DNA of 64,000 nt from Eledone cirrhosa. Taxonomy: Eukaryota. Below, in pieces: positions 13,830-54,371 of the stretch; position 1 is the first letter of the stretch, and each line of letters starts with the position of its first letter. The notes beneath the pieces were generated by a model that worked only from the letters and a program-made list of their open reading frames with translations, did not search any database and was not told the origin of the DNA. Both the position numbers and the translations under genes were made by a program. Location: the NCBI GenBank assembly GCA_964016885.1, contig OZ024740.1:199330001-199394000 (forward strand), written 5' to 3'.

Positions 13830-13867
13830 AGTTTATGAAATGGAAATGCGGGTATAAAGAATTTATT

Positions 13868-13983
13868 AGGTAACAATTGTTTCTATAGTGTATGGGTTAC
13901 CTATACCTCGCTACTTGAATAATATAAAATATTATCATAAACCGAAGGTACACTGTAAGCAAACACACCATGTCGTCAGAGCT
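13868..13983 (-). ncRNA. Hammerhead in the 3' pseudo-LTR (stem I disrupted)
   Basis: agct-CTGACGA-[89 nt]-GAAA-caattg-TT-acct. Confidence 0.65.
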
Positions 13984-15568
13984 TTGTATTGGAATGATAT
14001 GAAAATATTTTATACACTAGATAAAAGAGAAAGAAGGAGGTAGGAAGAGAAGGGGAAGAGGGAAGTGAGTAAGGGGGAGGGAGTCCTAGAATTTAAGACT
14101 GTCAGACTAGTAGAGATTGTAAGGAGAGAATGTTTTGGCAGCAGTTAGCTTAATGAGGCGTGTTAGGGTTGGTGGGGGAAGTAAATTCTTCTAGTGGTGT
14201 TGTTTGTACAAAATTTAGTTAAAGGGGTCAAAGTGGTACAGAGTTACATACAAGTTATTGGGACTATTATAGTAGCAGGTTATTTCTAAAGTGGTCCAGA
14301 AAACAGTGTTTAGTACTATTATTATAGAAAGCCATATCCTGTGTATAAACATATAAAACAGAAATTTGCAAACGGTGGTGTAAAAAGGTAACATTATATG
14401 CATTTAAAAAAAGGAAAAGTCTTTTTCAAACGATGGTTACAGTACAGTGAACGTTCAATTTTGCTGTTCAAAAGTTTGTTTACCGACGTTAAAATGCAGT
14501 ATATCTCCATATTGCATAATTTACAGAATCAATGATTTTGCTGATATGCAGGCGCAGCAGCAATAATTTGCCAATCAAGGGAGAATGCTTGATTGTTCCT
14601 CCGGAGCTGCCAGGCTTTATCGGCGACGGTTGTTACGGAGCGCATTTTATTGTGCCTGATCGAAGATCGATGTTGGTATAGGCGAGCTTTGAAGGAAGTT
14701 GCGGTACATCCGACGTAATACCATTTGTTGGTTCTGGAATTTATTGTACATCGGTAGACAATATTGCGTGCTAGGCACTGGTTATTCAGTGGACACGTAC
14801 CTGGTTTGGTGCAGTTACAATTATTTTTATGTGTTGCAGTTATATCCTGGATAGTTTGGTGGGGTTGTAGTTGCGTGTTAGTGCGTTGTATGTTGCTATG
14901 CTGGTGCGCTGAGTCATTAGGGATGTACTTATTTAGTATAGCTGAGTTGAGTTTTTTAATTAGTTGTTCTATGTTAGGTGCAGTGGAGTATGAGAGTCTA
15001 ATGGTTCGCGAGTTAAATATTTTATAGTATTATGTGAAGTTGTAAAGTGTTTATTGATTAGTGTATAGAATTGTGAGATAATCTTAGTGCTAATAGAAAT
15101 ATTGTACACGGGGTTATACCATATGTACTCTCTACATCTGACTCTATTTGCTGGATTCTACCTATTAGTATGCCTATTGATGTGTGTGTGTGGTGCAATA
15201 CTAGTTCGACTTACATGTGTTTTATTCATAGTACTTATGTGGTTATCGTCTAGATATTCTATTTTCTCGTAGTAACCCGCTTTTCTAAGTGCGTCATTAT
15301 AATATTCAGCATGCTCGTTGAAGGTCTGCAAATTAGACGACAGTCGGGAGATCCTTATGGATATATTTTTAGCGATAGATTTAATAATGGAGTGGGGATG
15401 GTTCGATTTTACATTAACGTACTTGAGATTTTCATTAAGTTTGTGAAATGGCTCTATATTATCGTTATTAAGGTTGAAGGTGACATCCAAGACGTTGACC
15501 ACCTTAAGATTGTGTTCGAAGGTAATATTAAGCCCTAGTTCTAAGAAAAGTTTCCTAATGTTTTTACG

Positions 15569-16459
15569 TCACCTTTCTAGGTTTTGTTTGTTCATATTCT
15601 TGACTAATAGAAGTGTATCGTCGCGGTATATTCCGCCATGGAGGCCCGTAAATTCGCTCTGGAGTCTGTGGGCTATATAGATCCCAACCAGATCCGTGAC
15701 CTCCGCCGAATCATTAGAACCCATCGTAATGTCGAATTCCGAGGGTCTATCTCTGCGGACCCAATAACTATTTTCAAAATGCACTACTGTGCGTCTAGCT
15801 TCAAGTATAATATTAATTTCCTCGTTTGTGAGGTCCGAGTTAGTCTTAGCGAATGAGAGGGCCTTATGCAGGGTTTCGAGTGAAATAGAGGAATAGTATT
15901 CATCTATAGCGAATTGAATAAAAGAAGATTTGTTTTTGTCACTAATGTTATTTAACCATCTTATTGCCTGTTGAGTATTACCCCATAATTTAATATCGAC
16001 CTTAGCCTTAACTTGTGGGATAATACGATCTAATATGTACTTACTGATTCTACCTATATCGGAATTTGAAGGACATATTAATCTAATTTTAGGGTTAGTA
16101 TCGAAGTTATCCTTATAGTCCTTCAGATTAAAAGTCGGTGTAGCTGAAGATAGGGGTACCGTTCTGTCGTCGATTTTCAGTTTCTTAACAATATCACATG
16201 CTGCGTTATTAATGTTGGTTAGTGTAGTTGCGTTTGTTTTTTTGAACTTCCTATGTAATTCCTTACGTATGAAATTATTATATGTTTCTATATCCAGGGT
16301 GTATAGATTCGATGTTTTGTCGGCCTTTATGATAATTCCTTTGGTATTTCTTAGGTTGTCGAGTAGAGTTTTAATATCTCGTTGCAGTTCGTTTTTCCTT
16401 CCGGTGGTAAATTTGATTCCGGTTATCATTTTCATTAAGTCCTGCTCGAAATAATCCAA
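15569..16459 (-). pseudogene. PLE reverse transcriptase segment
   Basis: 296-aa ORF with ADKT, RLI and YRDD motifs; continues after a frameshift into 15158-15502. Confidence 0.9.
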
Positions 16460-16883
16460 AAGAGGGTTAGTGGGTGGGTTTTTGTAGGATTTGAAACTAA
16501 ACTTATCGTTGTTGGTGTCGGAAGTTTGTGTAATCCTTTTTCCTATCGAAGTGGAAGGCCATCCATCTAATCCGCCGAATAAATTCGTTGGTCCTTTGTA
16601 TCATACCAAGAATGTATTCTTTTTTACCCTCAATGGGTATGTTTTTTAAGGACATGCCACAATGATGTTTTTCCATTTCAGATACGTAGGTTGATAGGTT
16701 ACTCGACTGTAAAGGAGTGTGAAGAATTAGTAAATTTGTATTCCAATGTTACTAAGTAGTTGCATTGGATGAAGTCAACCGACGTCGGAGATTGCTCAAC
16801 GTATAATAAAGTGTGTTTTGAAATACGGAGAAAATATGGAGAAGAAGATTCTGAAACGGAAATGCGGGTATAAAGAATGTATT

Positions 16884-16999
16884 AGGTAACAATTGTTTCT
16901 ATAGTGTATGGGTTACCTATACCTCGCTATTTGAATAATATAAAATATTATCATAAACCGAAGGTACACTGTAAGCAAACACACCATGTCGTCAGACCT
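16884..16999 (-). ncRNA. Hammerhead in the 5' pseudo-LTR with 89-nt stem II
   Basis: aggt-CTGACGA-catggtgtgt...atacactata-GAAA-caattg-TT-acct; stem I aggt/acct, palindromic stem III acaattgt. Confidence 0.75.
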
Positions 17000-17741
17000 T
17001 TGTATTGGAATGATATGAAAATATTTTATACACTAGATAAAAGAGAAAGAAGGAGGTAGGAAGAGAAGGGGAAGAGGGAAGCGAGTAAGGGGGAGGGAGT
17101 CCTAGAATTTAAGACTGTCAGACTAGTAGAGATTGTAAGGAGAGAATGTTTTGGCAGCAGTTAGCTTAATGAGGCGTGTTAGGGTTGGTGGGGGAAGTAA
17201 ATTCTTCTAGTGGTGTTGTTTGTACAAAATTTAGTTAAAGGGGTCAAAGTGGTACAGAGTTACAGACAAGTTATTGGGGCTATTATAGTAGCAGGTTATT
17301 TCTAAAGGGGTCCAGAAAACAGTGTTTAGTACTATTATTATAGAAAGCCATATCCTGTGTATAAACATATAAAACAGAAATTTGCAAACGGTGGTGTAAA
17401 AAGGTAACATTATATGCATTTAAAAAAAGAAAAAGTCGTTTTCAAATGATGGTTACAGTACAGTGAACGTTCAATTTTGCTGTTCAAAAGTTTGTTTACC
17501 GGCGTTAAAATGTAGTATATCTCCATATTGCATAATTTACAGAATCGATGATTTTATATTATGCAGGCGCAGCAGCAATAATTTGCCAATCAAGGGAGAA
17601 TGCTTGATTGTTCCTCCGGAGCTGCCAGGCTTTATCGGCGAGGGTTGTTACGGAGCGCATTTTCTCGTGCCTGAACGAAGATCGATGTTGGTATAGGCGA
17701 AATCAAAGACGAAATCAAAAGATGGTTAAAAGAGTTCCATA

Positions 17742-17811
17742 TATTTTATTATGCGCATTTCGAATACAAAATCATCCTGGGACAATAATTGTGTACTCAT
17801 CAGATAAAATA
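17742..17811 (-). ncRNA. Type I hammerhead at the 3' end of the next PLE
   Basis: tattttat-CTGATGA-gtacacaattatt..gatgattttgtattc-GAAA-tgcgca-TA-ataaaata; stem I 8 bp, palindromic stem III. Confidence 0.8.
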
Positions 17812-18328: not shown

Positions 18329-20483
18329 TATATTGGGTTTAAATGCTAAAAATTGGATTAAGAAGTGTAAAAATGTATTAATAAAATAAAATAAAATAGA
18401 TTAAAATAAATATAAAGAAATGATTTTTATAGAATAAAATATCTATGTCAACATTAATAATTTCTAGTAAAAATCTATATATGTGGGGTATACTATTTAA
18501 TTTTTATTTGATATCAACAAGTAAATAAAGGAAATTGTTAGGATGATTTATAAACGTAGAAAAACATATGACGTCATAATTTGTTTACACAATCTACGAC
18601 GGTTTGAGCGAAAATCTGAGACTATAGAAAAAAGATCAAAGGCTTAATATATGATGAGAAAACCAAATTAATACATTGTAGAATATAATGAAAGATATGC
18701 AAAGATAACCGTGACCTCGTGGAATATGTTATAGGACATCAGCTATATACTTTGTGAAAGGTCTTGTAGGATTTATGATTACAAAGTCCAAATAAATCGG
18801 TTCTTCGATTTATTATTGTGTTGGAATTCTAGATAATGGTAAACTTTTCAACTAGGCATAAATTACAAACTCTAGATATGGAAGCATTGGAGTATAGAGA
18901 TGCGTTGTAGATTTTACGCCAAGAAATTTCGTAATTTATGCTTTTGTCTTTTAAGGACCAAATAAGTTCTGAGAGTGCGCTGCTGGTACTTTTGAGTGGA
19001 GATTTAAATGTAGAAGAATGATTATAGAATCTTGCTTTAAAGGAGGTAGAAGTAGAGCCAATGTAGGTATAGGTATTGGTAATAGTTACCACTTTACATT
19101 CGTATACTAGGTTTTTATCGAGACAGAAATTACTAAGAGGACAATTAATAGAGCAGTTGCATTTACGATTACAATTATTTACAGAGTTATTTGCAACATG
19201 CCCAGGGTTAATTATATTAGGAACTTGAGTGGTGGAATTAACTAAAGGAGGTGCTAAAGTTTCCAGATTACTATTTGATACATTGCTCAAAGTTACGTTT
19301 GACGTCGTATTTATACTTGTGTTATTTTGCCTAGAGTTTACATTGACGTCGAGCCTTATAGTGTTATTAGTATGGCTCTCATAGTTGGATGCATATGAGT
19401 TATTATTTAATATTTTAGAATTGTCTTGAGATAATTTTACAAAATTTCGAAGTAGTAGAATACGAAAATTTAATAGTACGCCTATTGAAAATCTGGCTAT
19501 ATATATGTGTGAAGGAGGGAAGCTGTTATGTAATGCCTTAACAAATAATTTAGGGATATTATTAATAACGGAAAGAGAGAAGGCAGCGTTGTGCCAAAGG
19601 ATATTTTTATATCTAGGTCTCCTACTTTTGTTAACAGTATGATTATTACTAGCTACATTATTATAAGCTCTGACAAGATTAAGTTCTTTAGTATACCTAA
19701 TTTTGTCTAAATATCCAGCCCTAGATAGCGCATTATTATAATAGTTGGCATTACCTTCGAAGATATCTTTATTAGAGGATACATTAGCAATTCTTTTTTC
19801 TACACTTTTGACTATAGCAGTTTTAACATTATTAGGGTGGTTAGATTTAAAGTTAACGTAATTTAAGTTCTCGTTATCCTTATGATATGGGTAATATAGG
19901 CCGGTATCTAGATTAAGGTATATATCAAGGAAATTTGCTAGGTTATCATTATTTTCAAATTCAATTTTTAAGTTAAGCTGCTTAAATAGATCAAGTATAT
20001 TTTTCTTAATTATATTAAAGTTTACATTGTTACAATTAGAGACAGTAAAGAGAGCAACATCACTATAAATCCCACCGCAAAGTTGGGTAATTGTGCGGTT
20101 TAAAGAATTCAAGATGAAAATTCCAACTAAGTCGGTCAGATTAGCCGAATCCGACGAACCCATGGTGATGTCGAAATTGTTGAAAATATCCACTCTTGTC
20201 CAATATTCATTCTTAAATTCCAAGATGGTTTTCCTAGCTGTGAGAATGTTGTTTATTTCTTCACTAGTAATGTCTGTATATTTTAAAGCATATGAGAGAG
20301 AGCCTTGTTTATGAGTGAAGGATAAATAGAAGAGTAATAGCTAGCGATGTCTAATTTTATTATATGTCTTCTTTATTATATATACTCCAGTTCTACCAAT
20401 TGTTGAGTGCTACTTATCTGATATATGCATAGTTTTATTGTTCTACAATATTACTCAGCATCTATATTATATATATATATATA

Positions 20484-28649: not shown

Positions 28650-29680
28650 GGTTTAAAAATAGTGAAAATAGTGATGAATGGTATATTTACAAGTGGAAAC
28701 GATCTCAGATTTCCTATTTAATAAATTTAATTTAGTGAAGATAATAGTATGGGATTCAAGAAGACAAAGGTGGCAGAATTTATTGAGGGTCTATAAGAAG
28801 CAGCTTGTGCGATCACATTCCAGGTTATCAAAAGTGATACGAAATTTGATAACGAGGTTGCATGTTTAAGCTTAGAATTCTTAAAAGCATAGAGATGGGA
28901 ATTATACCTCGTCTTGAAACTATTCGATGTAGAACCAAGATAGGTTTTGAGTTGGTAGAAGTTATGACAGTGCAGGAATAAATAATATTCTTAACAAGGC
29001 AGTTTCCATTAAGAGGGCATACATTATTGGGCCTACAATTACAATTATATCTATTGATTAAGCGGTCTTGAGGATAAAGGTGTAAAGGGGCATTAGTAAT
29101 ACGAGTGCTATAATTACTATTATCATTCCTATAAGTCCTAGATACTAATGTGTTATTGGATTTGTTTGTACAATTACTAGGCATAACATTGCTAATCCTA
29201 TCATCAGGTTGTGAATTACTATTTATATTACCTGAAGAAAAGTATTTACTAATTTTCTTATTATTACTACTCGCTATATGAATAGCAATGTTAGGTGTGG
29301 TAGAATAAGAGATTTTAATGGTATTCTTATTAATCAAACTGTGATATTTATGCTCAATTGTGAAATTTTGTTCCATAGTAGAGAAGAATACTCTAGAAAC
29401 ATTAACATTGAAGGGTGGATTAAAATATGAATTTAGCTTTTTACTATTATTTTTTCTTTTGTTACAAATGAGTGGGTTCATATGATTATAATCTTCTATT
29501 TTATATCTAGTATTACAGATATCAGGTTTAGTTAGTACACTATGCTTTTTATTCATTATATTTGTCTTATCTTTAAAATGTATTTTATTAGTTTTGGGAG
29601 GACCTGTAAATGGGTGCATATCATCATTTAAACCCCTGTTTGCCCCAATAGCACTACCACCATTTTCTGGATATTTATAA
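28650..29680 (-). mobile_element. Penelope-like fragment (linker plus GIY-YIG)
   Basis: YFNPPF, TIKISYSTTPNI, CNCRPNNVCPLNGNCLVKNIIYSC; downstream frame CHLCLLES..LNRKSEIVSTCK. Confidence 0.82.
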
Positions 29681-29704
29681 AGTATATATATATATATATA
29701 TAAA

Positions 29705-29749
<45 letters not shown>

Positions 29750-29808
29750 AGAGAGCGTGTGTGAGTGTGTGTGTGTGTATATGTGTGTGTGTGAGAGAGC
29801 GTGTGTGA

Positions 29809-29859
<51 letters not shown>

Positions 29860-29867
29860 GTGTGTGT

Positions 29868-29962
<95 letters not shown>

Positions 29963-33134: not shown

Positions 33135-33280
33135 TCTGGAGTCAGAAATAGCCGTCGAACGGCTTGAGCTCTGCCGTCGGGGTCATACTTGTTCCTATTA
33201 CCCACTCTACTACCCTAAGTATTGAGTACTTTGGTGCGTTATGGTCCAACTGGTTCCCTACTACTAATCCTTCGTTATAT
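33135..33280 (+). repeat. Dispersed repeat carrying a hammerhead 3' half (same family as 54582-54800)
   Basis: gtcgaa-cggc-ttgagctct-gccg-TC-gg followed by ~100 bp matching 54715-54800. Confidence 0.6.
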
Positions 33281-33322
33281 ATATATATAATATATATATT
33301 CCAAATTACACACCATGGACTA

Positions 33323-33378
<56 letters not shown>

Positions 33379-33471
33379 TATATAGTCCAGGGTGTGTAAT
33401 TTGGAGTTACTGTGTATTCCTTCGTTATATATATATATAATATATATATTCCAAATTACACACATGGACTA

Positions 33472-33527
<56 letters not shown>

Positions 33528-33772
33528 TATATATAGTCCAGGGTGTGTAATTTGGAGTTACTGTGTAGAGCAAGACAGAGTGTATTATGGGGAAATAAAA
33601 TAACATAGACGATCGGTTACTTCTTCATTTTGTTTATTGGTTGTTTAACTCGCGTTTCGCCACTGTTCAGCTCAAGTTTCGATCTGTATCGATCTGACCC
33701 GAAATATATAAAAACCAAACAATAAACGTAATGAAGGAGTAACCAATCGTCCCTGTTATCTTTCACTCTATA

Positions 33773-34887: not shown

Positions 34888-35995
34888 GCTTAGATAGGGC
34901 TAGACATAAGATAGGAAAAACACCTCATGGTACGACAACCAGAGATACCAGAGTGTCATCTTTGTGGACGCTACCCCTGGAGGGAAATTAGCTAACCAGT
35001 GTAGAAAGGCCCTGAGAAAGACACACTTAAAAATAAAGGTGGTAGAAAAGAAAAGAATCACCATAAAATCCCTGATCAGCAAAACCTACCCTTTTAAGAA
35101 AACCCACTGTACCAATAGGAAAGGTATCATATGTAAGGTCAACCCCCGGATAAACTGTAAAACTAGAAACGTAGTCTATAGCATAAGATGTACAGAGGGT
35201 ACTTGCAGAAACATGACAACAACATACATAGGTGAGACAGCTCTTAGCATAGGTGAAAGAATAGACCAACACAGGGGGGAACTAAAAGGACGAAAAAACG
35301 GGTCAGTACTATACGAACATGCTAGACAACAACATGACGGTAACATAGACAACATAGAAATTAGAATAATATCTAAACATAGAAATGACCCAGCAGGTAG
35401 GCAAATCAGAGAGGTCAGTGAAATAGAAATTAGAAGACCAAGGCTAAACAGAAAGAATGAATGGAATAACAACAACACCCAAACAAACAACACTGACCTA
35501 AGAGAAGTATAAATAAGTAAATAAAATAAAATAAATAAATAAATAAATAAATACATACACAAGCACAATAACAACAAGCACATAAACACACACTAGTCAC
35601 CCATCACACAGCAAACAAAACACTATACACACACGCAAACGCATGCGCAAAGAAGACAAAATAAAATAAACAAACAAGCAAATAAATAAATACATATATA
35701 TACAGACTGAATAAAAATGGCGTAGACATACAATACAACAGGAGGAAAATATAGCACCACTGACGATGTTGCAGATGTGCAACGAAATATTTATGATAAA
35801 CTATATATATGTGTTTGTGCCTATATTGTATCTGTATTATTTTTGACCGCCGGTCAGTCAATGGCAACATTGAGGACCGAGTATATTAGATTACCGATAT
35901 AAAAGACACAGAAGCGAGAAGCGAAAACCAACGAAACAGTGAGTGTGTTCTGTTATTAATTCTGGCAATATTACACAAATATGACCCTCCCCAAG

Positions 35996-36000
<5 letters not shown>
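34888..36000 (+). mobile_element. Naiad-like PLE family A, 5'-truncated (GIY-YIG plus 3' UTR)
   Basis: ORF 34964-35512 NVVYSIRC..YIGETALSIGERIDQH..LNRKNEW; matches 51595-52712; ends atgaccctccccaagtataa(ta)n. Confidence 0.88.
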
Positions 36001-36069
<69 letters not shown>

Positions 36070-36076
<7 letters not shown>

Positions 36077-36783
36077 ATTAGTATATTTACCAACATATGC
36101 GTACAGATGTACACTAATGCTATCAAATACATAAGTTATGTCATAGTACCTAGGTGGTTCAATGCAGGAGGATGCAGAGCAATTATATGAAAGACGTAAA
36201 ATAAGAACATTTTAAAAATTAATAATTAACTTACTAAAATTTTCACTCCAACTAATTAGTTTCTGTAATGGAATAAAGATAGTTACGCAATGTAACCATC
36301 GAGAATTCATTACATCATCAGGGAGTCTATTCTCAGCTAAGTCTCCAGGCAATGCGCGGACACTAGGGACTCATATAAAAATAATAATAATTCGGTGGAT
36401 GGAACAGCTAGCGGGGACTGAATTCCAAAGCACTGAAAAAGTTCACTGTCTCTGGTCAAATGGCAGATTCTAAAGAATCAATCACGTGACACTGAGGCTA
36501 GTCGGAAGGAGTGGGGTGGTAAAATGACAAAAGCCTACTACCACTACAATGAGTTAGTAGTGGATTTGGCAGGTTTGCTCAACAAATAAATAATTTGGAG
36601 ATAAATATAGAGAATTAGTATATTTACCAACATATGCGTACAGATGTACACTAATGCTAGCAAATACATAAGTTATGTTATAGTACCTAGGTGGTTCAAT
36701 GCAGGAGGATGCAGAACAATTATATGAAAGACGTAAAATAAGAAAATTTTAAAAATTAAAAATTAACTTACTTACTAAAATGT

Positions 36784-36790
<7 letters not shown>
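36070..36790 (-). mobile_element. Small non-coding HHR element (retrozyme-like) with ~175-bp direct repeats
   Basis: 36070-36248 matches 36608-36788; an intact hammerhead lies at the inner edge of the left repeat. Confidence 0.7.
36245..36326 (-). ncRNA. Intact type I hammerhead
   Basis: actcc-CTGATGA-tgtaatg..gatggttac/gtaactatc..cattaca-GAAA-ctaattag-TT-ggagt. Confidence 0.85.
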
Positions 36791-36814
<24 letters not shown>

Positions 36815-36841: not shown

Positions 36842-37587
36842 TTAGAAATAGCACGGAAATTACTTTTAAGGATCTGACTTCTTTTCTCCCTCTTTGATTC
36901 GTCAACATGACATTTTTGAAAGAATGAGAGAAACAATTCTTTTCTAAAAAAAGGACTTTTATAATGTACATAAAATACATCAAATATACCCGGTTTCGAT
37001 GTATGAGTGTGAACCATCTTATCAAATGCTGAACATACAATTAAAAAGAAAAAAAAAAATTATAATTCTAAATTACGTGTTAATTACATGTCTCATTTAC
37101 CCCCCCCCCCCCCTTTAGTAATTGTCTCTAGCTTACATTATCCCCATTCACCACTCCCATCTGAACATTTGACCAATTCTTTAACACAATTGAGACTATT
37201 CCTAAAAATTATTTTGTCCTGTGAAAAAATACAACTACCAACACTACTACTACTACTACTACTATGACTATCCACCCTCTGTATGTATAAGGCTCCATTT
37301 TAGACCCAGTCTTCACAACAAGAAAGATGAACAGACCTTTTCAACTCTTAATTTAAAATTTGTTATACTTTCTAATTTCTTTTAATAGAGATATTCAAAA
37401 TTTGGTAAGATAGTTCACGCTGATACATCGAAACCGGTTATAGTTTATATATTTTATGTACATTATAAAACACCACTTTTAAAAAGAGAATTGCTCCTCT
37501 CATTTTTTCAATAATATCACTTTCACGAATCAAAGAAGAAAAAAAGTATATCAGATACTTATATATATTTTTCGTGCTATTTCCAAT
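36842..37587. repeat. Diverged ~200-bp inverted repeat, each arm with a decayed hammerhead
   Basis: 36842-37038 vs 37392-37587. Minus arm TTGATAA-gatg..catc-GAAA-ccgg; plus arm TTGGTAA-gata..catc-GAAA-ccgg-TT. Confidence 0.7.
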
Positions 37588-37634
37588 TCCACCATTTCCC
37601 TATAACCCCTGTTTTGTATAGAACCTTACTCTCT

Positions 37635-37709
<75 letters not shown>

Positions 37710-37810
37710 CGTATATACAAATTCACATACATACATACAAACATTCACAGAAACAGAAAGAACACGACTACCTACAAAGGTGTTGTGACATACATACATA
37801 CATACATACA

Positions 37811-37840
<30 letters not shown>

Positions 37841-37841
<1 letters not shown>

Positions 37842-39133
37842 GAAGCATACAAACAATATGAATCCCAAAAGTTCGGTTTTATGCAAAGGCTAAACACTTT
37901 ATGGAACCCCAAACACCCAGAATTAGACTATTCTCCAAAGCATTTAAATGGACAGGCAAAACGTATCATTAGATGTAAATTGATACATCTAACAGAATTG
38001 AGTGATACTACAAATACAGCACTTGTAGACAATCACCCCACCTCCACTGACAGACAAAGAGAATGGCCAGCTAAAGCTAACAGTGAACAGCTCACCAACA
38101 ATTTTGCTGAAATCCATCCCACTTCCACTGAAGAACAGCGAGAAAGGTCAGCTAACTCTAGTAGTAATTGTCACCACATCAACAACGAGGCTGAAATTCA
38201 TAACCCTACTGAACAAACAGAACACTAAAAGCTTGTGGACACCTTACAAGTGATATAGAACAATATGTTTCAAGAGATACACAGCCTTAATGAGAGTGAC
38301 AGACCATACAACACCAGAATCAGTAAAGAACCCACTAAATTGGAATTGGAAGCGGTGAACGAAATAGCTGGCAATTATCTGAAGGCTATACGATCTAAAG
38401 GTGTAGAGATGACATTTGAAACGCTTAATATTTTGTTATATGTTTCAGCTGTCACATTGCTATCATATAACACACATCTAAAACCACGCAATCAAGATAC
38501 AAACAGAAAGCCTGAACCAGCGTGGATGCGAAATTTAAAAAGCAAAATTTTGTCCCTGAGACGAAGTATCTCACACATCGCCGTCGTTATGAAATGCAAC
38601 ATAGAGAGCAACTTCACACGACACCAGGAAGACCTAAAAAAAAAGTTAGAGAGACGATTTGTAGATACAAAATTTAAAACTTTGAACTCCAAATTACACC
38701 AGTTGAAACAACAACTCACAGCTACAACAGAAATACTAAAATATAAGTCAACAAACAGAACATAAACGACAAGTGATAAATAGATTGTTTGCCAGAGATC
38801 CTAAATCAGTTTATCGCAGCTTCGGTGGCAAAAGCTCAATCCCTGTAAATGACACTCCTTCAAAAGAACAGGTTGAGAGCTACTGGAGATCTATATGGGA
38901 AACGGATGACGGATTCGACAGACAAACTAACTGGCTAAAAGAACTGGAACAGGACTACTGGCAACTTGTCCGGACAAAACAATATGACATAGATGGGTCA
39001 ATACTTGAAACAGCTCTACAGAAAATGTCGAATAGGAAATCACCAGGCCCAGAACACATAACAGGATACTGGTTGAAGAATTTCACCTTCTATCGGCAAG
39101 ATCTCATACGGCTGTTTACAGAAACCATTAAAG

Positions 39134-39224
<91 letters not shown>

Positions 39225-41400
39225 CTGCCCAGATGGTTATCAACTGCCACTACTATCCTCATTCCCCAAAATAGCCAAACCACCCTTGCTAAAAGTTACC
39301 ACCCAATAGCCTGCCAAAACATCATGTATAAATTATATACTGGGTGCCTTAACCTGTTCTTACAGGATCACTGTGCTACCAACAACATCATAACACCTGA
39401 GCAAGCTGGTGGAAAGAGGGAGGTGTGGGGTTGCATAGATCACCTACTAACTAACAACATGATTCAGGAAAAAACAACAAAGAATTGCAGAAACATGACT
39501 GTGGTGTGGCTGGACTATCAAAAAGCATTTGATAGTTTACCCCGTGGGTGGATTATTAAGGCTTTACAGTTAGCCAAAGTCCCACAACCATTGGTAGCTG
39601 CTGTTGAACGCCTGACCAAGAACTGGTACACCAATTTGATCCTTAGAGGTGAGAAGGAGAAGTTAAGACTGATAAGATACATTACCAGAAAGGCATCTTT
39701 CAGGGTGATAGCTTGTCAGTGATACTATTCGTTCTCTCACTGAATCCACTATCTTACCTACTCAGGAAACAAGATGGACAAAGAAGTGTGTCCAGAAGTA
39801 TCTCCCATCTTTTCTTTGTTGATGACCTAAAGTTGTATGGGCCAAATATCAATGACATCAAGAAACAATTGGACCTCATTACACAATTTTCAACCGACAT
39901 CAAAATGAAATTTGGTGAGTCCAAGTGTGCATATTTGGCAGTAAAACGTGGAAGAGCTGTGCCCTCCTCTAGAAATCTAGAGATGAACGGCCTGACAATA
40001 CAACCTCTACAGGACAAGATGAGAATGTCAGATATGATGGACCCATAAATAAGGAGAGAACCAGAACTGAATTCCTCAGAAGAGTAAAGAAAATATGGTC
40101 ATCAGAACTGTCTGCGTACAACAAATACATTGCCCACAATACTTATGCTGTGCCAATTCTAACGCCAACATTTGGCCTGCTGAACTGGTCATTGCAAGAA
40201 CTAAGTGAGATGGATGTTAGAACTCGCAAACTTCTCAGTGTTACTGGGAACTTTAACATCAATGGTGATGTGGATAGGCTATACTTCTCACGCAAGGAAG
40301 GTGGCCGGGGTCTAAAATCAATATTAACAACATATGAGACTCGGATAGTAACACTGAAGCAACACGTTCAACAGAGGAAAAAGGTTGGCAACCATCTTGC
40401 CCAGGTTTATGAGCATGAAAAAAAAAATATCATTAGAATAGCGACTGATCTGGAGGAGAGATATGGAATAAAGCCTTATATAAATCTCTCACCCAGAGAA
40501 ATCGGAAGATCCTATTCAATGTTCAAACAAGATAAAAAAATTGACCAATTTACAGAAAAAGGTGTGCATGGATACTTGAGACGTAAAACAACGACCATAG
40601 AGGGGATAAACCACTCAAAAGCCTGGCATGGAGTTCCGACAAGTTTATGACATCACACCTTGAGGGATATCTCTATGCAATACAGGAAGAAGAACTCCCT
40701 ACCAAATATCTGCTGCACAAAAGAGGAGGGCCAGCAGCTGACAATAAATGTAGGCTATGTAAAACAAAGATCGAGGATGTAAGCCACATTGTTGCCAGCT
40801 GCGAAAGGATGTCATCTCGCTACTACCTCCCCATGAGACACGATGGAATAGCTAGAACCATCTGGAACGCACTTCGGAAAACAAAATTAATAACAAACGA
40901 GGAAGAATATATTGAGACAGATGGCACTAAGGAATACTGGTGGAACCTGAAAATAAAAACTGCCACCAAATTAAAGCACAACCGGCCTGACATTGTTGTT
41001 CGGGACCACACATTGAAAACGTGTTCTGTTGTGGAGATCAGCTGCCCACTTGATGTAAACGTTGTCAGAAAAATACAGGAGAAGGAGGACATCTACGGAC
41101 CAATGATGAGGAGTTTACAAATCCAGTATCCAAGATACGCCTTTAGCATCATACCTATCATTATTGGAGCTACGGGTTATATACCAACCCGCTTGGACCA
41201 AAGTATGATTGAACTTGGATTTGCAGACAAAAAGCGCAGCTCCCTAATTCATAGTCTACAAATGGCTGCGATAGCTGGCACCTTCAAAATTTGCAAAACA
41301 TTTTTGCGATTCAAGGGATGACAATTTATTTCTTTTACAACCTTGCCACCAGGAAGGTGGCCGGTCAAAAAAATATACTCGAAATTAAGAGAAAGAGATA
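37841..41400 (+). mobile_element. R4/Dong-clade non-LTR retrotransposon (RT, CCHC, REL endonuclease), frameshifted, within (TACA)n
   Basis: KSPGPEHITGYWLK, WLDYQKAFDSL, GIFQGDSLS, HLFFVDDLK, DRLYFSRKEGGRGL, CRLCKTKIEDVSHIVASC, RHD, RPDIV..VEISCP, KTFL; (TACA)n on both flanks. Confidence 0.9.
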
Positions 41401-52791: not shown

Positions 52792-54365
52792 GGTGATACC
52801 TTGAGTACGATTGAACCGAAATACGAGTTTTTTGAGATACGAGACTCAACTCAGCTAATATTTTGCCTTGTGATACGAGCCGAGTTTTGAGATACGAGCT
52901 ACGAGCTAGTGGGTGCCTGAGAGGGGGTGCAGAATTAACTTCGCCACAGAATTAATTTAGCCCGGTGTTTCCCAACCAAAGTTACTCCCGTCGTTCATAT
53001 CTGTCATGTGACTAAAGATTAAAACAAATGTAATATTATTACGGTTAGGGTTAGGTTTAGGGTTGAATTAACCCTAACTCTAAAAAATAACACTAACCCT
53101 AACCCTAACCGTAAATATATTACATTTGTTTTAGTCAGTTTACGGATATAAACGACGGGAGTAACTTTCGTTGGGGTTCACCGGGCGAAATTAATTCAGT
53201 AACCCCATGAGAGCGATCAGTCGACATGGTAACCTCGGCGCGCGAGCATCTTTCAATTTTAGTTGCTTTTGGTTTATTTCGATAAAAATCTTAGTTTCAA
53301 CCATGAGTCCTCAGAAAGTGCCAAGAAGACGGGTGAGAAAAATAAAAGGATGATGTCTATGGATATTAAGCACGAAATCGTAGAAAAACATGAGCGTGGT
53401 GTGCGTGTTATTGACTTGGCAAAGGAGTACGATCGTAGTACTTCTACAATATGTACTATTTTGAAACAAAAGGATTCAATAAAGGCTATGACACCAGCCA
53501 AGGGTGTTAAGATAATTTCTAAGCTCCGGACCTATGTCCATGTAGAGATGGAAAAGATGCTGTTGGGGTGGTTGACCAAGAAGCAGCTCGCTGGAGATAC
53601 CGTAACCGAGACAATCATCTGTGAGAAAGCACGTGTTATTTATAGAGATTTGGTGCGGCAGACGGCGGGATCATCCTCGGACGAGACATTGGAAGAGTCA
53701 TTCAAAGCCAGTCGGGGATGGTTTGATAATTTAAAAAAAAGGACTGGCATTTACTCCGTCGTCAGGCATGGTAAGGCTGCAAGCTCAGATTTTAAGGCAG
53801 CTGAAGAATTTACTTCATTTTTTGGTGAACTGGTAGAAGCCGAAGGATACATCCCCCAGCAAGTCTTTAAGTGTGACGAGACAGGGCTATTTTGGAAAAA
53901 AGATGCCAAGTAGAACGTACATAACAGCAGAGGAGAAGAGCTTGCCAGGCCACAAACCTATGAAGGACAGGTTGGCTCTTGCACTGTGTGCAAATGCGAG
54001 TGACAATTTAAAGATTAAACCGCTGGTCGTATATCACTCGGAAAACCCTAGGACATTTAAAAGTCATAAGATTCTTAAAGAAAAACTGCAGGTTATGTGG
54101 AAGGCAAAACCAAAGGTATGGGTCACCAGAGAGTTTTTTGTGCAGTGGGTAAACCTGGCTTTTGGTCCTGCCGTCCAGAAGTATCTTTTAGATAATAACC
54201 TGCCCCTGAAAGCCCTACTCGTCCTTGACAATGCTCCCGCACACCCACCTAATCTCGAGGATGACATCTTAGAAGAATTCAAGTTTATTAAGGTATTGTA
54301 CCTTCCAACCAACACCACCCCTATCGTTCAGCCCATGGACCAGCAGGTGATTTCGAATCTTAAAT
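52791..54365 (+). mobile_element. Tigger/pogo DNA transposon, 3'-truncated (CENP-B HTH plus DDE), frameshifted
   Basis: TA|cggtgatacc.. left end; FKASRGWFDNLKKR, QQVFKCDETGLFWK, LLVLDNAPAHP, PTNTTPIVQPMDQQVI; interrupted by a SINE at ~54370. Confidence 0.92.
52924..53206. mobile_element. Palindromic MITE with inward (TTAGGG)n/(CCCTAA)n tracts, inserted in the Tigger 5' region
   Basis: Whole element is an imperfect inverted repeat gggg...cccc; flanks ctgagag / atgagag resemble a 7-bp TSD. Confidence 0.75.
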
Positions 54366-54371
54366 AGCTCT

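What the first reader, a model, noticed from the sequence alone, without database searches (positions are those of the whole stretch)
36070..36790. Mini-element that starts at its own ribozyme cleavage site: ~540-nt monomer plus 175-nt terminal redundancy
On the minus strand the element begins ..agtgaacattttagtaag (36788). This matches the sequence 2 nt after the GUU cleavage site of the intact HHR (ggagtgaaaattttagtaag, 36249). The insert thus equals one cleavage-to-cleavage monomer plus a partial second round, and it encodes no protein. That is the footprint expected from reverse transcription of an HHR-processed (possibly circular) RNA, i.e. a retrozyme likely mobilised by PLE RT.
Basis: partly seen in the sequence, partly recalled or inferred. 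Interest (0 to 1): 0.82.

Follow-up and report, generated by a model that had tools for sequence, protein, structure and literature searches.

The report
Ribozyme-bearing mini-transposon with paired start sites
This is one of thousands of copies of a protein-free, ribozyme-bearing mini-transposon whose copies end at two fixed sites, each just before a small conserved RNA hairpin also found in this genome's Penelope-like transposons, which likely lend it their reverse transcriptase and likely start copying at both sites at once.

Summary
The copy is one of thousands (9,169 exact ribozyme-junction matches) of a non-coding repeat (unit about 520-590 nt) with a covarying type I hammerhead: a non-LTR retrozyme, a known class. 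The 175-nt redundancy is not a leftover second round. Copies end at two fixed sites 112 nt apart (A and B) inside (TA)n, and head-to-head insertions pair A with B in 65 of 70 cases. Each site lies just upstream of a bulged hairpin (43 and 45 of 52 units, none elsewhere). The hairpins, paired ends and TA targets recur in intact Hydra-clade Penelope-like elements of this genome, two families of which also share the odd ribozyme form. They are the likely helpers; no parent family was found. 5' ends pile up just after the cut site (4.7-fold in a sample, 7.6-fold genome-wide), yet about 80% of passes read through it, and RT pausing is not excluded. Five of seven long arrays alternate ABAB, hinting at dimeric circular templates. 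Cleavage and circles remain untested.

The parts
36072..36788 (-). Whole insertion: one ~540-nt unit plus the first ~178 nt of the next unit, ending at priming site B
36250..36788 (-). Unit from +3 after one cut site to the next cut site; non-coding
36072..36249 (-). Terminal repeat (+1 to site B); inferred first stretch copied by RT
36245..36327 (-). Type I hammerhead: stem I 36326-36322/36249-36245, core 36321-36315, stem II 36313-36308/36270-36265 with long branched loop, GAAA from 36263, palindromic stem III 36261-36250; predicted cut 36250^36249 after GUU
36229..36343 (-). Predicted extension of stem I to about +21; a possible RT pause site
36721..36729 (-). Priming site A (TTTCATATA, +70), internal here; second copy at 36192-36184
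36694..36717 (-). Bulged hairpin A, 3' of site A; second copy 36180-36157 has one stem change
36609..36620 (-). Priming site B (TACTAATTCTCT, about +182), internal copy; terminal copy 36083-36072
36578..36600 (-). Bulged hairpin B, 3' of site B
36058..36075 (-). (CT)9 run, 7 units longer than the template; inferred RT stutter or later expansion
36789..36814 (.). (TA)n target, 5' flank
36000..36057 (.). (TA)n target, 3' flank
13830..17660 (-). Context only: broken Hydra-type PLE of a candidate helper group, with hairpins at 16830-16795 and 16717-16702 (113 nt apart)

Best explanation
It is a non-coding, hammerhead-bearing tandem mini-element with thousands of copies, likely copied in trans by the RT-endonuclease of Hydra-clade Penelope-like elements, and this copy likely came from a multimeric RNA that had been cut by its own ribozyme at the 5' end. 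Shown: dispersed copies sit in (TA)n; there are two fixed 3' ends, A (+70) and B (about +182); head-to-head insertions pair A with B; a bulged hairpin follows each site in the mini-element and in autonomous Hydra-type families; 5' ends are enriched at +1 to +20; most copies read through the cut site; several long arrays alternate ABAB. Inferred: (1) tandem transcripts self-cleave only partly, probably as double hammerheads through the palindromic stem III; (2) the Hydra protein binds the hairpins and cuts both strands of (TA)n; (3) one broken end primes at A and the other at B, helped by a few U-A base pairs; (4) each cDNA runs until it stalls or reaches a cut RNA end; (5) the cDNAs are joined head to head by microhomology, or a single cDNA is joined to the other TA end, as in this copy; (6) some templates are dimeric circles.
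For: Copy number: 1,766 exact A-ends and 546 B-ends, 9,169 junctions. Pairing: the partner of A-anchored inversions is B in 58 of 63, and the partner of B-anchored ones is A in 24 of 24; the two sets share 17 insertions. In a sample not chosen by 3' end, 36 of 40 loci end at A or B and 8 of 8 two-strand loci pair A with B (tallied by eye). 21 of 65 arm pairs are not nested, so they are separate cDNAs; arms of one insertion are 95.5% alike versus 85.6% for others (37 pairs). Hairpins: 43 and 45 of 52 units, 0 elsewhere, 0.06 per shuffled unit; also in three autonomous families with intact 745-784 aa ORFs bearing RW, DKT and CxCx5C motifs. L284 and L337 show A/B-paired inverted ends. 5' pile-up: 38 of 168 arms at +1 to +20, 4.7-fold, against 6 just upstream; 2.6-fold without the 9 palindrome-prone doubles; genome-wide TA-abutting starts 48 of 3,212 versus 7 of 3,534 mid-unit. 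Alternation: 15 of 20 informative columns, no AABB.
Against: No parent PLE shares significant primary sequence with the mini-element (6 to 138 of 200 shuffles reach the score). The ribozyme is atypical: a C-A mismatch at the base of stem II in 118 of 125 copies, a GUU triplet and a short stem III, so it may cut poorly or not at all. The pile-up peaks at +7 to +15, where a palindrome (AAAATTTT), AT-rich microhomology and the extended stem I could also stop or join cDNAs. Only 5 of 162 arms end at +1 to +4 (p = 0.027), and non-inverted sample copies alone are not enriched at +1 to +20 (3 versus 1.7 expected). Of 35 TA-abutting starts listed, 6 begin upstream of the cut. Array L179 looks amplified after insertion, so ABAB could also be DNA-level. 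One insertion (L094) has arms of two subfamilies. There are no RNA data.
Confidence: 0.7

Rival explanations
1. One reading: RT goes once round a monomeric circle plus a partial second round, and that makes the terminal repeat.
For: 153 of 191 passes cross the cut site. Units within an insertion are closer than between insertions (1.5% versus 2.7%). 16 rare alleles are shared by all units of an insertion. The unit folds stably as a circle (z -4.3 to -6.8).
Against: The repeat length is fixed by site B. A closed circle gives no stop at the cut site. 20 rare alleles are shared by only a subset of units, 5 of them across arms. Long arrays mostly have period 2, not 1.
Confidence: 0.15
2. The ribozyme does not cut in vivo; 5' ends gather at +1 to +20 because RT pauses at the long stem I and palindromes favour joining. 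The rest of the model stands.
For: Stem I is predicted to extend to about +21. Ends are also raised at the inner hairpin, +481 to +520. 10 of 38 ends fall at +7. In the anole PLE, cleavage was dispensable in vitro and no reads ended at the site (PMC11167929).
Against: Several copies start at +1 or +2, including both arms of L002, L070, L094, L135, L345, L346 and L347. 12 of 35 TA-abutting starts lie at +1 to +6 in G-rich sequence with little microhomology. The core is kept in 124 of 125 motif-selected copies as CUGAUGA or CUGACGA, and the helices covary.
Confidence: 0.25
3. Inverted arms arise by fold-back self-priming of one cDNA, as proposed for rotifer Penelope elements.
For: Some junctions sit on palindromes (L065, L071, L098, L100, L118, L150). 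44 of 65 arm pairs are nested.
Against: 21 of 65 are not nested either way, arm reaches are uncorrelated (rho 0.006), and the second arm still ends at a fixed site.
Confidence: 0.1
4. The family spreads at the DNA level (satellite-like duplication or extrachromosomal DNA circles) and the ribozyme is a passenger.
For: L179 shows local amplification; ABAB can come from two-unit unequal exchange.
Against: Thousands of dispersed copies with fixed 3' ends, ragged 5' ends, TA targets and covarying RNA structure.
Confidence: 0.05
5. The helper is another RT (a Neptune-type PLE or a LINE), not a Hydra element.
For: No parent found; such elements are present in the window.
Against: Hairpins, 92-113-nt site spacing, TA targeting and the ribozyme form match the Hydra-type families. 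The other candidates' ends were not examined.
Confidence: 0.08

Closest known systems
Metazoan non-LTR retrozymes (Cervera and de la Pena 2020, PMC7229834; read parts 2-4 of 6)
   Same: Non-coding tandem repeats with a type I hammerhead, low GC, no LTR; proposed PLE mobilisation through circRNA.
   Different: Unit 520-590 nt versus about 170-400 nt; PLE-style atypical ribozyme; fixed paired 3' ends and head-to-head insertions are not described in the parts read; circRNA not tested here.
Retrozymes as non-autonomous PLE derivatives (bioRxiv 10.64898/2026.07.22.740005; read parts 1-3 of 5, all main text; supplements closed)
   Same: Same class and same conclusion on origin; unit size within its 51-972 bp range.
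   Different: It rests on co-occurrence and pLTR homology in Xenopus and gives no insertion mechanism. Here the link is shared cis-signals with Hydra-type families. Only 1 of its 9 tested elements cleaved.
Hydra-clade PLEs (Craig et al. 2021, PMC8557442; read section 11 and passages)
   Same: (TA)n targets, hammerhead, partial tandems, an inverted copy, and a tail often at one end only.
   Different: No ORF here; the tail is 112 nt rather than 30-40 nt; the hairpin signal is not mentioned in the passages read.
PAc Poseidon in vitro system (Frangieh et al. 2024, PMC11167929; read parts 1-2 of 4; three text supplements searched without hits, figures not seen)
   Same: Two internal RT start sites that define the tail; both strands cut in AT-rich DNA; RNA needed 3' of the start sites; predicted dimer.
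   Different: PAc shows no strand difference in site use and no homology at priming, and no reads end at the ribozyme site. Here A pairs with B, both sites are UA-rich, and 5' ends are enriched after the cut.
L1 twin priming (recalled, not read)
   Same: Two target ends prime on the RNA and give an inversion.
   Different: The second site is fixed here, and the arms overlap and vary independently.
PLE min-HHR variants (Cervera and de la Pena 2014, PMC4209133; read parts 1-2 of 4)
   Same: Long stem II, short stem I, an extra base after position 9, palindromic stem III, weak dimer-dependent cleavage expected.
   Different: An additional A before GAAA and a 45-50-nt branched loop II.

Membership tests
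Non-LTR retrozyme | Tandem repeats with a type I hammerhead in each unit | tested here: met
   45 of 52 units keep CTGATGA; arrays up to 6 units
Non-LTR retrozyme | No protein-coding capacity | tested here: met
Non-LTR retrozyme | Dispersed, retroposition-like copies | tested here: met
Non-LTR retrozyme | Ribozyme self-cleaves | not testable with these tools
   indirect only: covariation, 5' enrichment
Non-LTR retrozyme | Expressed as linear and circular RNA | tested here: inconclusive
   no read-level data obtained; ABAB arrays are indirect
Type I hammerhead | Core CUGANGA...GAAA, NUH triplet, three helices | tested here: met
Type I hammerhead | G10.1-C11.1 pair directly before G12 | tested here: not met
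   an extra C and an extra A flank the G-C pair in 118 of 125 copies; U-A in this copy
Non-autonomous PLE (Hydra type) | Tail from two 3' ends, inverted and partial-tandem copies | tested here: met
Non-autonomous PLE (Hydra type) | (TA)n target | tested here: met
Non-autonomous PLE (Hydra type) | Sequence homology to an autonomous family's pLTR | tested here: inconclusive
   shared hairpins and short motifs, alignment not significant; only three of many families examined
Hydra-clade PLE (candidate helpers) | RWK-like, DKT and CxCX5C motifs, C-terminal GIY-YIG, hammerhead | tested here: met
   read in the L284 ORF against PMC8557442 section 11; no phylogeny built; Pfam gave no hit on L284
Plant LTR retrozyme | Type III hammerhead in LTRs, PBS/PPT, 4-bp TSD | tested here: not met
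   type I motif, tandem units, TA flanks

The most novel reading that the evidence does not exclude
Hydra-type Penelope elements and this retrozyme use a two-hairpin code. One protein dimer cuts both strands of (TA)n and starts one cDNA at each hairpin-marked site, which explains the PLE tail and the head-to-head inversions. The ribozyme makes cut linear and dimeric circular templates whose footprints (starts at +1, ABAB arrays) are written in the genome.
Probability: 0.4. Interest if true: 0.78.

Novelty: new variant of a known kind. Interest (0 to 1): 0.58.

Why it matters
How PLEs make their tails and tandem or inverted structures, and what their hammerheads do, are stated open questions (PMC8557442, PMC11167929), and rolling-circle copying of retrozymes is still a proposal (PMC7229834). 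This family gives a 540-nt substrate, nearby intact helper ORFs, a candidate RT-recognition hairpin with natural covariation, and countable predictions: A pairs with B, some starts lie at +1, and dimers serve as circular templates. The class itself is known, which caps the score.

Tried and rejected
Rfam scan: no hit. Search for public RNA data: no RNA holder listed; no read-level evidence of expression, cleavage or circles was obtained, so these stay open. First structure count was mis-registered and replaced. The TAAG indel and the A-to-C / T-to-G changes in AAAATTTT first looked like inherited differences between the window's two repeats; they recur in a palindromic, slippage-prone context, and the +50 to +178 stretch showed 0 shared and 3 private differences, so they were not used against the circle model. 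Parent search through neighbouring ORFs (L046, L084, L091, L211, L222, L224, L227, L247, L343) found nested or fused unrelated pieces, none joining site B to an ORF start. Alignments to three Hydra 5' regions were not significant. The window's PLEs were first taken for Naiads and re-assigned because their nuclease is C-terminal. A count of restart duplications at the ends was mostly false hits. L119 was mis-fetched and dropped; of the first 100 listed A-ends, 3 near-duplicates and the last 7 were not fetched; 17 B-anchored loci duplicated A-anchored ones and were removed before counting. Earlier-findings look-ups returned nothing.

Full report
Observation. The minus-strand element runs from 36788 to about 36072 between two (TA)n tracts. 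It holds a type I hammerhead with the predicted cut between 36250 and 36249, and its first base matches position +3 after that cut. The two terminal repeats differ by 6 substitutions and a 4-nt indel. Positions below are counted from the cut.

It is a large family. The genome search gave 3,249 candidates and 9,169 exact 22-nt junction motifs against 0 for the reversed control. Complete units were 519-554 nt in 52 distinct copies, 76-98% identical to this one; other subfamilies reach 571-594 nt. No ORF over 66 aa was found in four units tested. Stems II and its inner hairpin covary. The ribozyme is atypical: an extra C and A flank the base of stem II in 118 of 125 copies, and stem III is a 12-nt palindrome that pairs between two molecules but not within one. 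From PMC4209133 such motifs cut weakly and as dimers.

3' ends are fixed. Copies stop at +70 (site A; 1,766 exact matches followed by TA) or about +182 (site B; 546). I analysed 89 of the first 100 listed A-ends and 30 B-ends, 102 distinct insertions. Seventy are head-to-head inversions and 65 of these pair A with B. The partner of an A end was B in 58 of 63; the partner of a B end was A in 24 of 24. A 76%-identical subfamily keeps the same 112-nt spacing. In 40 loci anchored on the ribozyme instead, 36 ended at A or B by eye. The 175-nt repeat of the finding is therefore the distance from the cut to site B, the first stretch copied. This is the PLE tail, which PMC11167929 traced to two RT start sites, but longer and strictly paired. 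Arms are separate cDNAs: 21 of 65 pairs are not nested, and junctions show microhomology (34), blunt joins (7), filler (20) or other (4).

A hairpin follows each site. The motif YUC-stem-loop-stem-U(U/C/A)-GAR occurs after site A in 43 and after site B in 45 of 52 units, nowhere else, and 0.06 times per shuffled unit. The descriptor was written after seeing these examples, so the shuffle rate shows rarity, not an independent discovery. The same hairpins occur upstream of intact ORFs in three autonomous families, 92, 108 and 113 nt apart, and after the first end of a fourth; some of these have only a 2-bp upper stem. The ORF read in full (L284) carries the Hydra-clade motifs listed in PMC8557442. 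L284 and L337 show A at one end and B at the inverted end in (TA)n. Two of the families share the mismatch at the base of stem II and the long loop II. Primary-sequence similarity to the mini-element is not significant, so the helper group is inferred and the parent is unknown.

5' ends. 38 of 168 arms end at +1 to +20 (4.7 times background, P = 2e-14) and 6 in the 20 nt upstream, but 153 of 191 passes cross the site. Without the 9 insertions where both arms end there, the excess is 20 versus 7.6; non-inverted copies alone give 3 versus 1.7. Genome-wide on one strand, 48 of 3,212 anchors near the cut have (TA)6 within 14 nt upstream versus 7 of 3,534 mid-unit anchors (odds ratio 7.6). AT-rich microhomology inflates this. 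Among 35 listed loci, 6 start upstream of the cut, 12 at +1 to +6 and 17 at +7 to +10 (tallied by eye). L002 has both arms starting at +1 and +2. A minority of templates therefore likely had a ribozyme-cut 5' end, with RT pausing at stem I as the main rival. Breakpoints come from BLAST extension and are good to a few bases.

Circles. Units within an insertion are closer than between insertions but not uniform. In seven arrays of four or more units, 15 of 20 informative columns alternate strictly, five arrays are mainly ABAB, and none shows AABB. L176 is ABABAB with 9 private changes and no nested sharing. This fits RT rolling round a dimeric circle or jumping end to end on a dimer. Two-unit DNA duplication is not excluded, the sample is small, and L179 shows later monomer amplification.

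Mechanism for this copy (inferred). A Hydra-type protein cut a (TA)n tract and primed at site B, stuttered on CUCU to leave 7 extra CT units, read through one uncut ribozyme, reached an RNA end at the next cut site, and the cDNA was joined to the other TA end with loss of two or three bases.

Relation to print. Non-LTR retrozymes and their PLE origin are published (PMC7229834; bioRxiv 10.64898/2026.07.22.740005). One-sided tails, inversions and TA targets are known for PLEs (PMC8557442, PMC3846280, passages). Seven full-text searches listed no paper describing paired A/B priming, the shared hairpin or ABAB arrays for these elements; subscription journals, preprint supplements and supplementary figures were not visible and may bear on this.

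Verdict. Real feature, known class, new mechanistic variant. Interest 0.58.

Noticed in passing
window 13830-17660 (-): Broken Hydra-type PLE with partial-tandem ends and a (CT)n end; relatives with intact 778-784 aa ORFs exist.
   Followed up: partly
window 18780-20340 (-), 28828-29961 (-), hammerhead core near 17803 (-): Further Hydra-type PLE fragments; relatives of the first end at two sites about 96 nt apart (L224, L227).
   Followed up: partly
window 9680 (+) and 34778 (+): Two more type I hammerhead motifs; 34778 precedes a GIY-YIG-like ORF fragment at 34910-35512.
   Followed up: no
window 36881-37058 and 37369-37546: 178-nt inverted repeat (79%) beside the element, with a degenerate hammerhead-like stretch; probably another head-to-head PLE end pair.
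   Followed up: no
window 37515-41321 (+) and 53263-54367 (+): Broken LINE (RVT_1, zf-RVT) and a Tc5/pogo-like transposase.
   Followed up: no
L329-L336: Very young Hydra-type family with near-identical 781-aa ORFs and the core variant CUGAAGA; the L284 family has the same core variant.
   Followed up: partly
site B ends in many loci: (CT)n runs up to about 30 units follow site B where the template reads CTCT and are absent from 41 ends reading CTTTA; the element may seed microsatellites.
   Followed up: partly
L003, L157, L345: Short stretches next to the priming site repeated two or three times, like abortive starts and re-priming.
   Followed up: partly
L161:2010-2130: Mini-element arm joined head to head to the tail region of an autonomous-type PLE; possible mixed-template insertion.
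   Followed up: partly
L003, L138, L009, L061, L002, L019 flanks: Several other hammerhead families sit in neighbouring (TA)n hotspots, three motifs in L138; more retrozyme families are likely.
   Followed up: no
window 33265-33567: 150-nt tandem repeat with internal TA palindromes.
   Followed up: no
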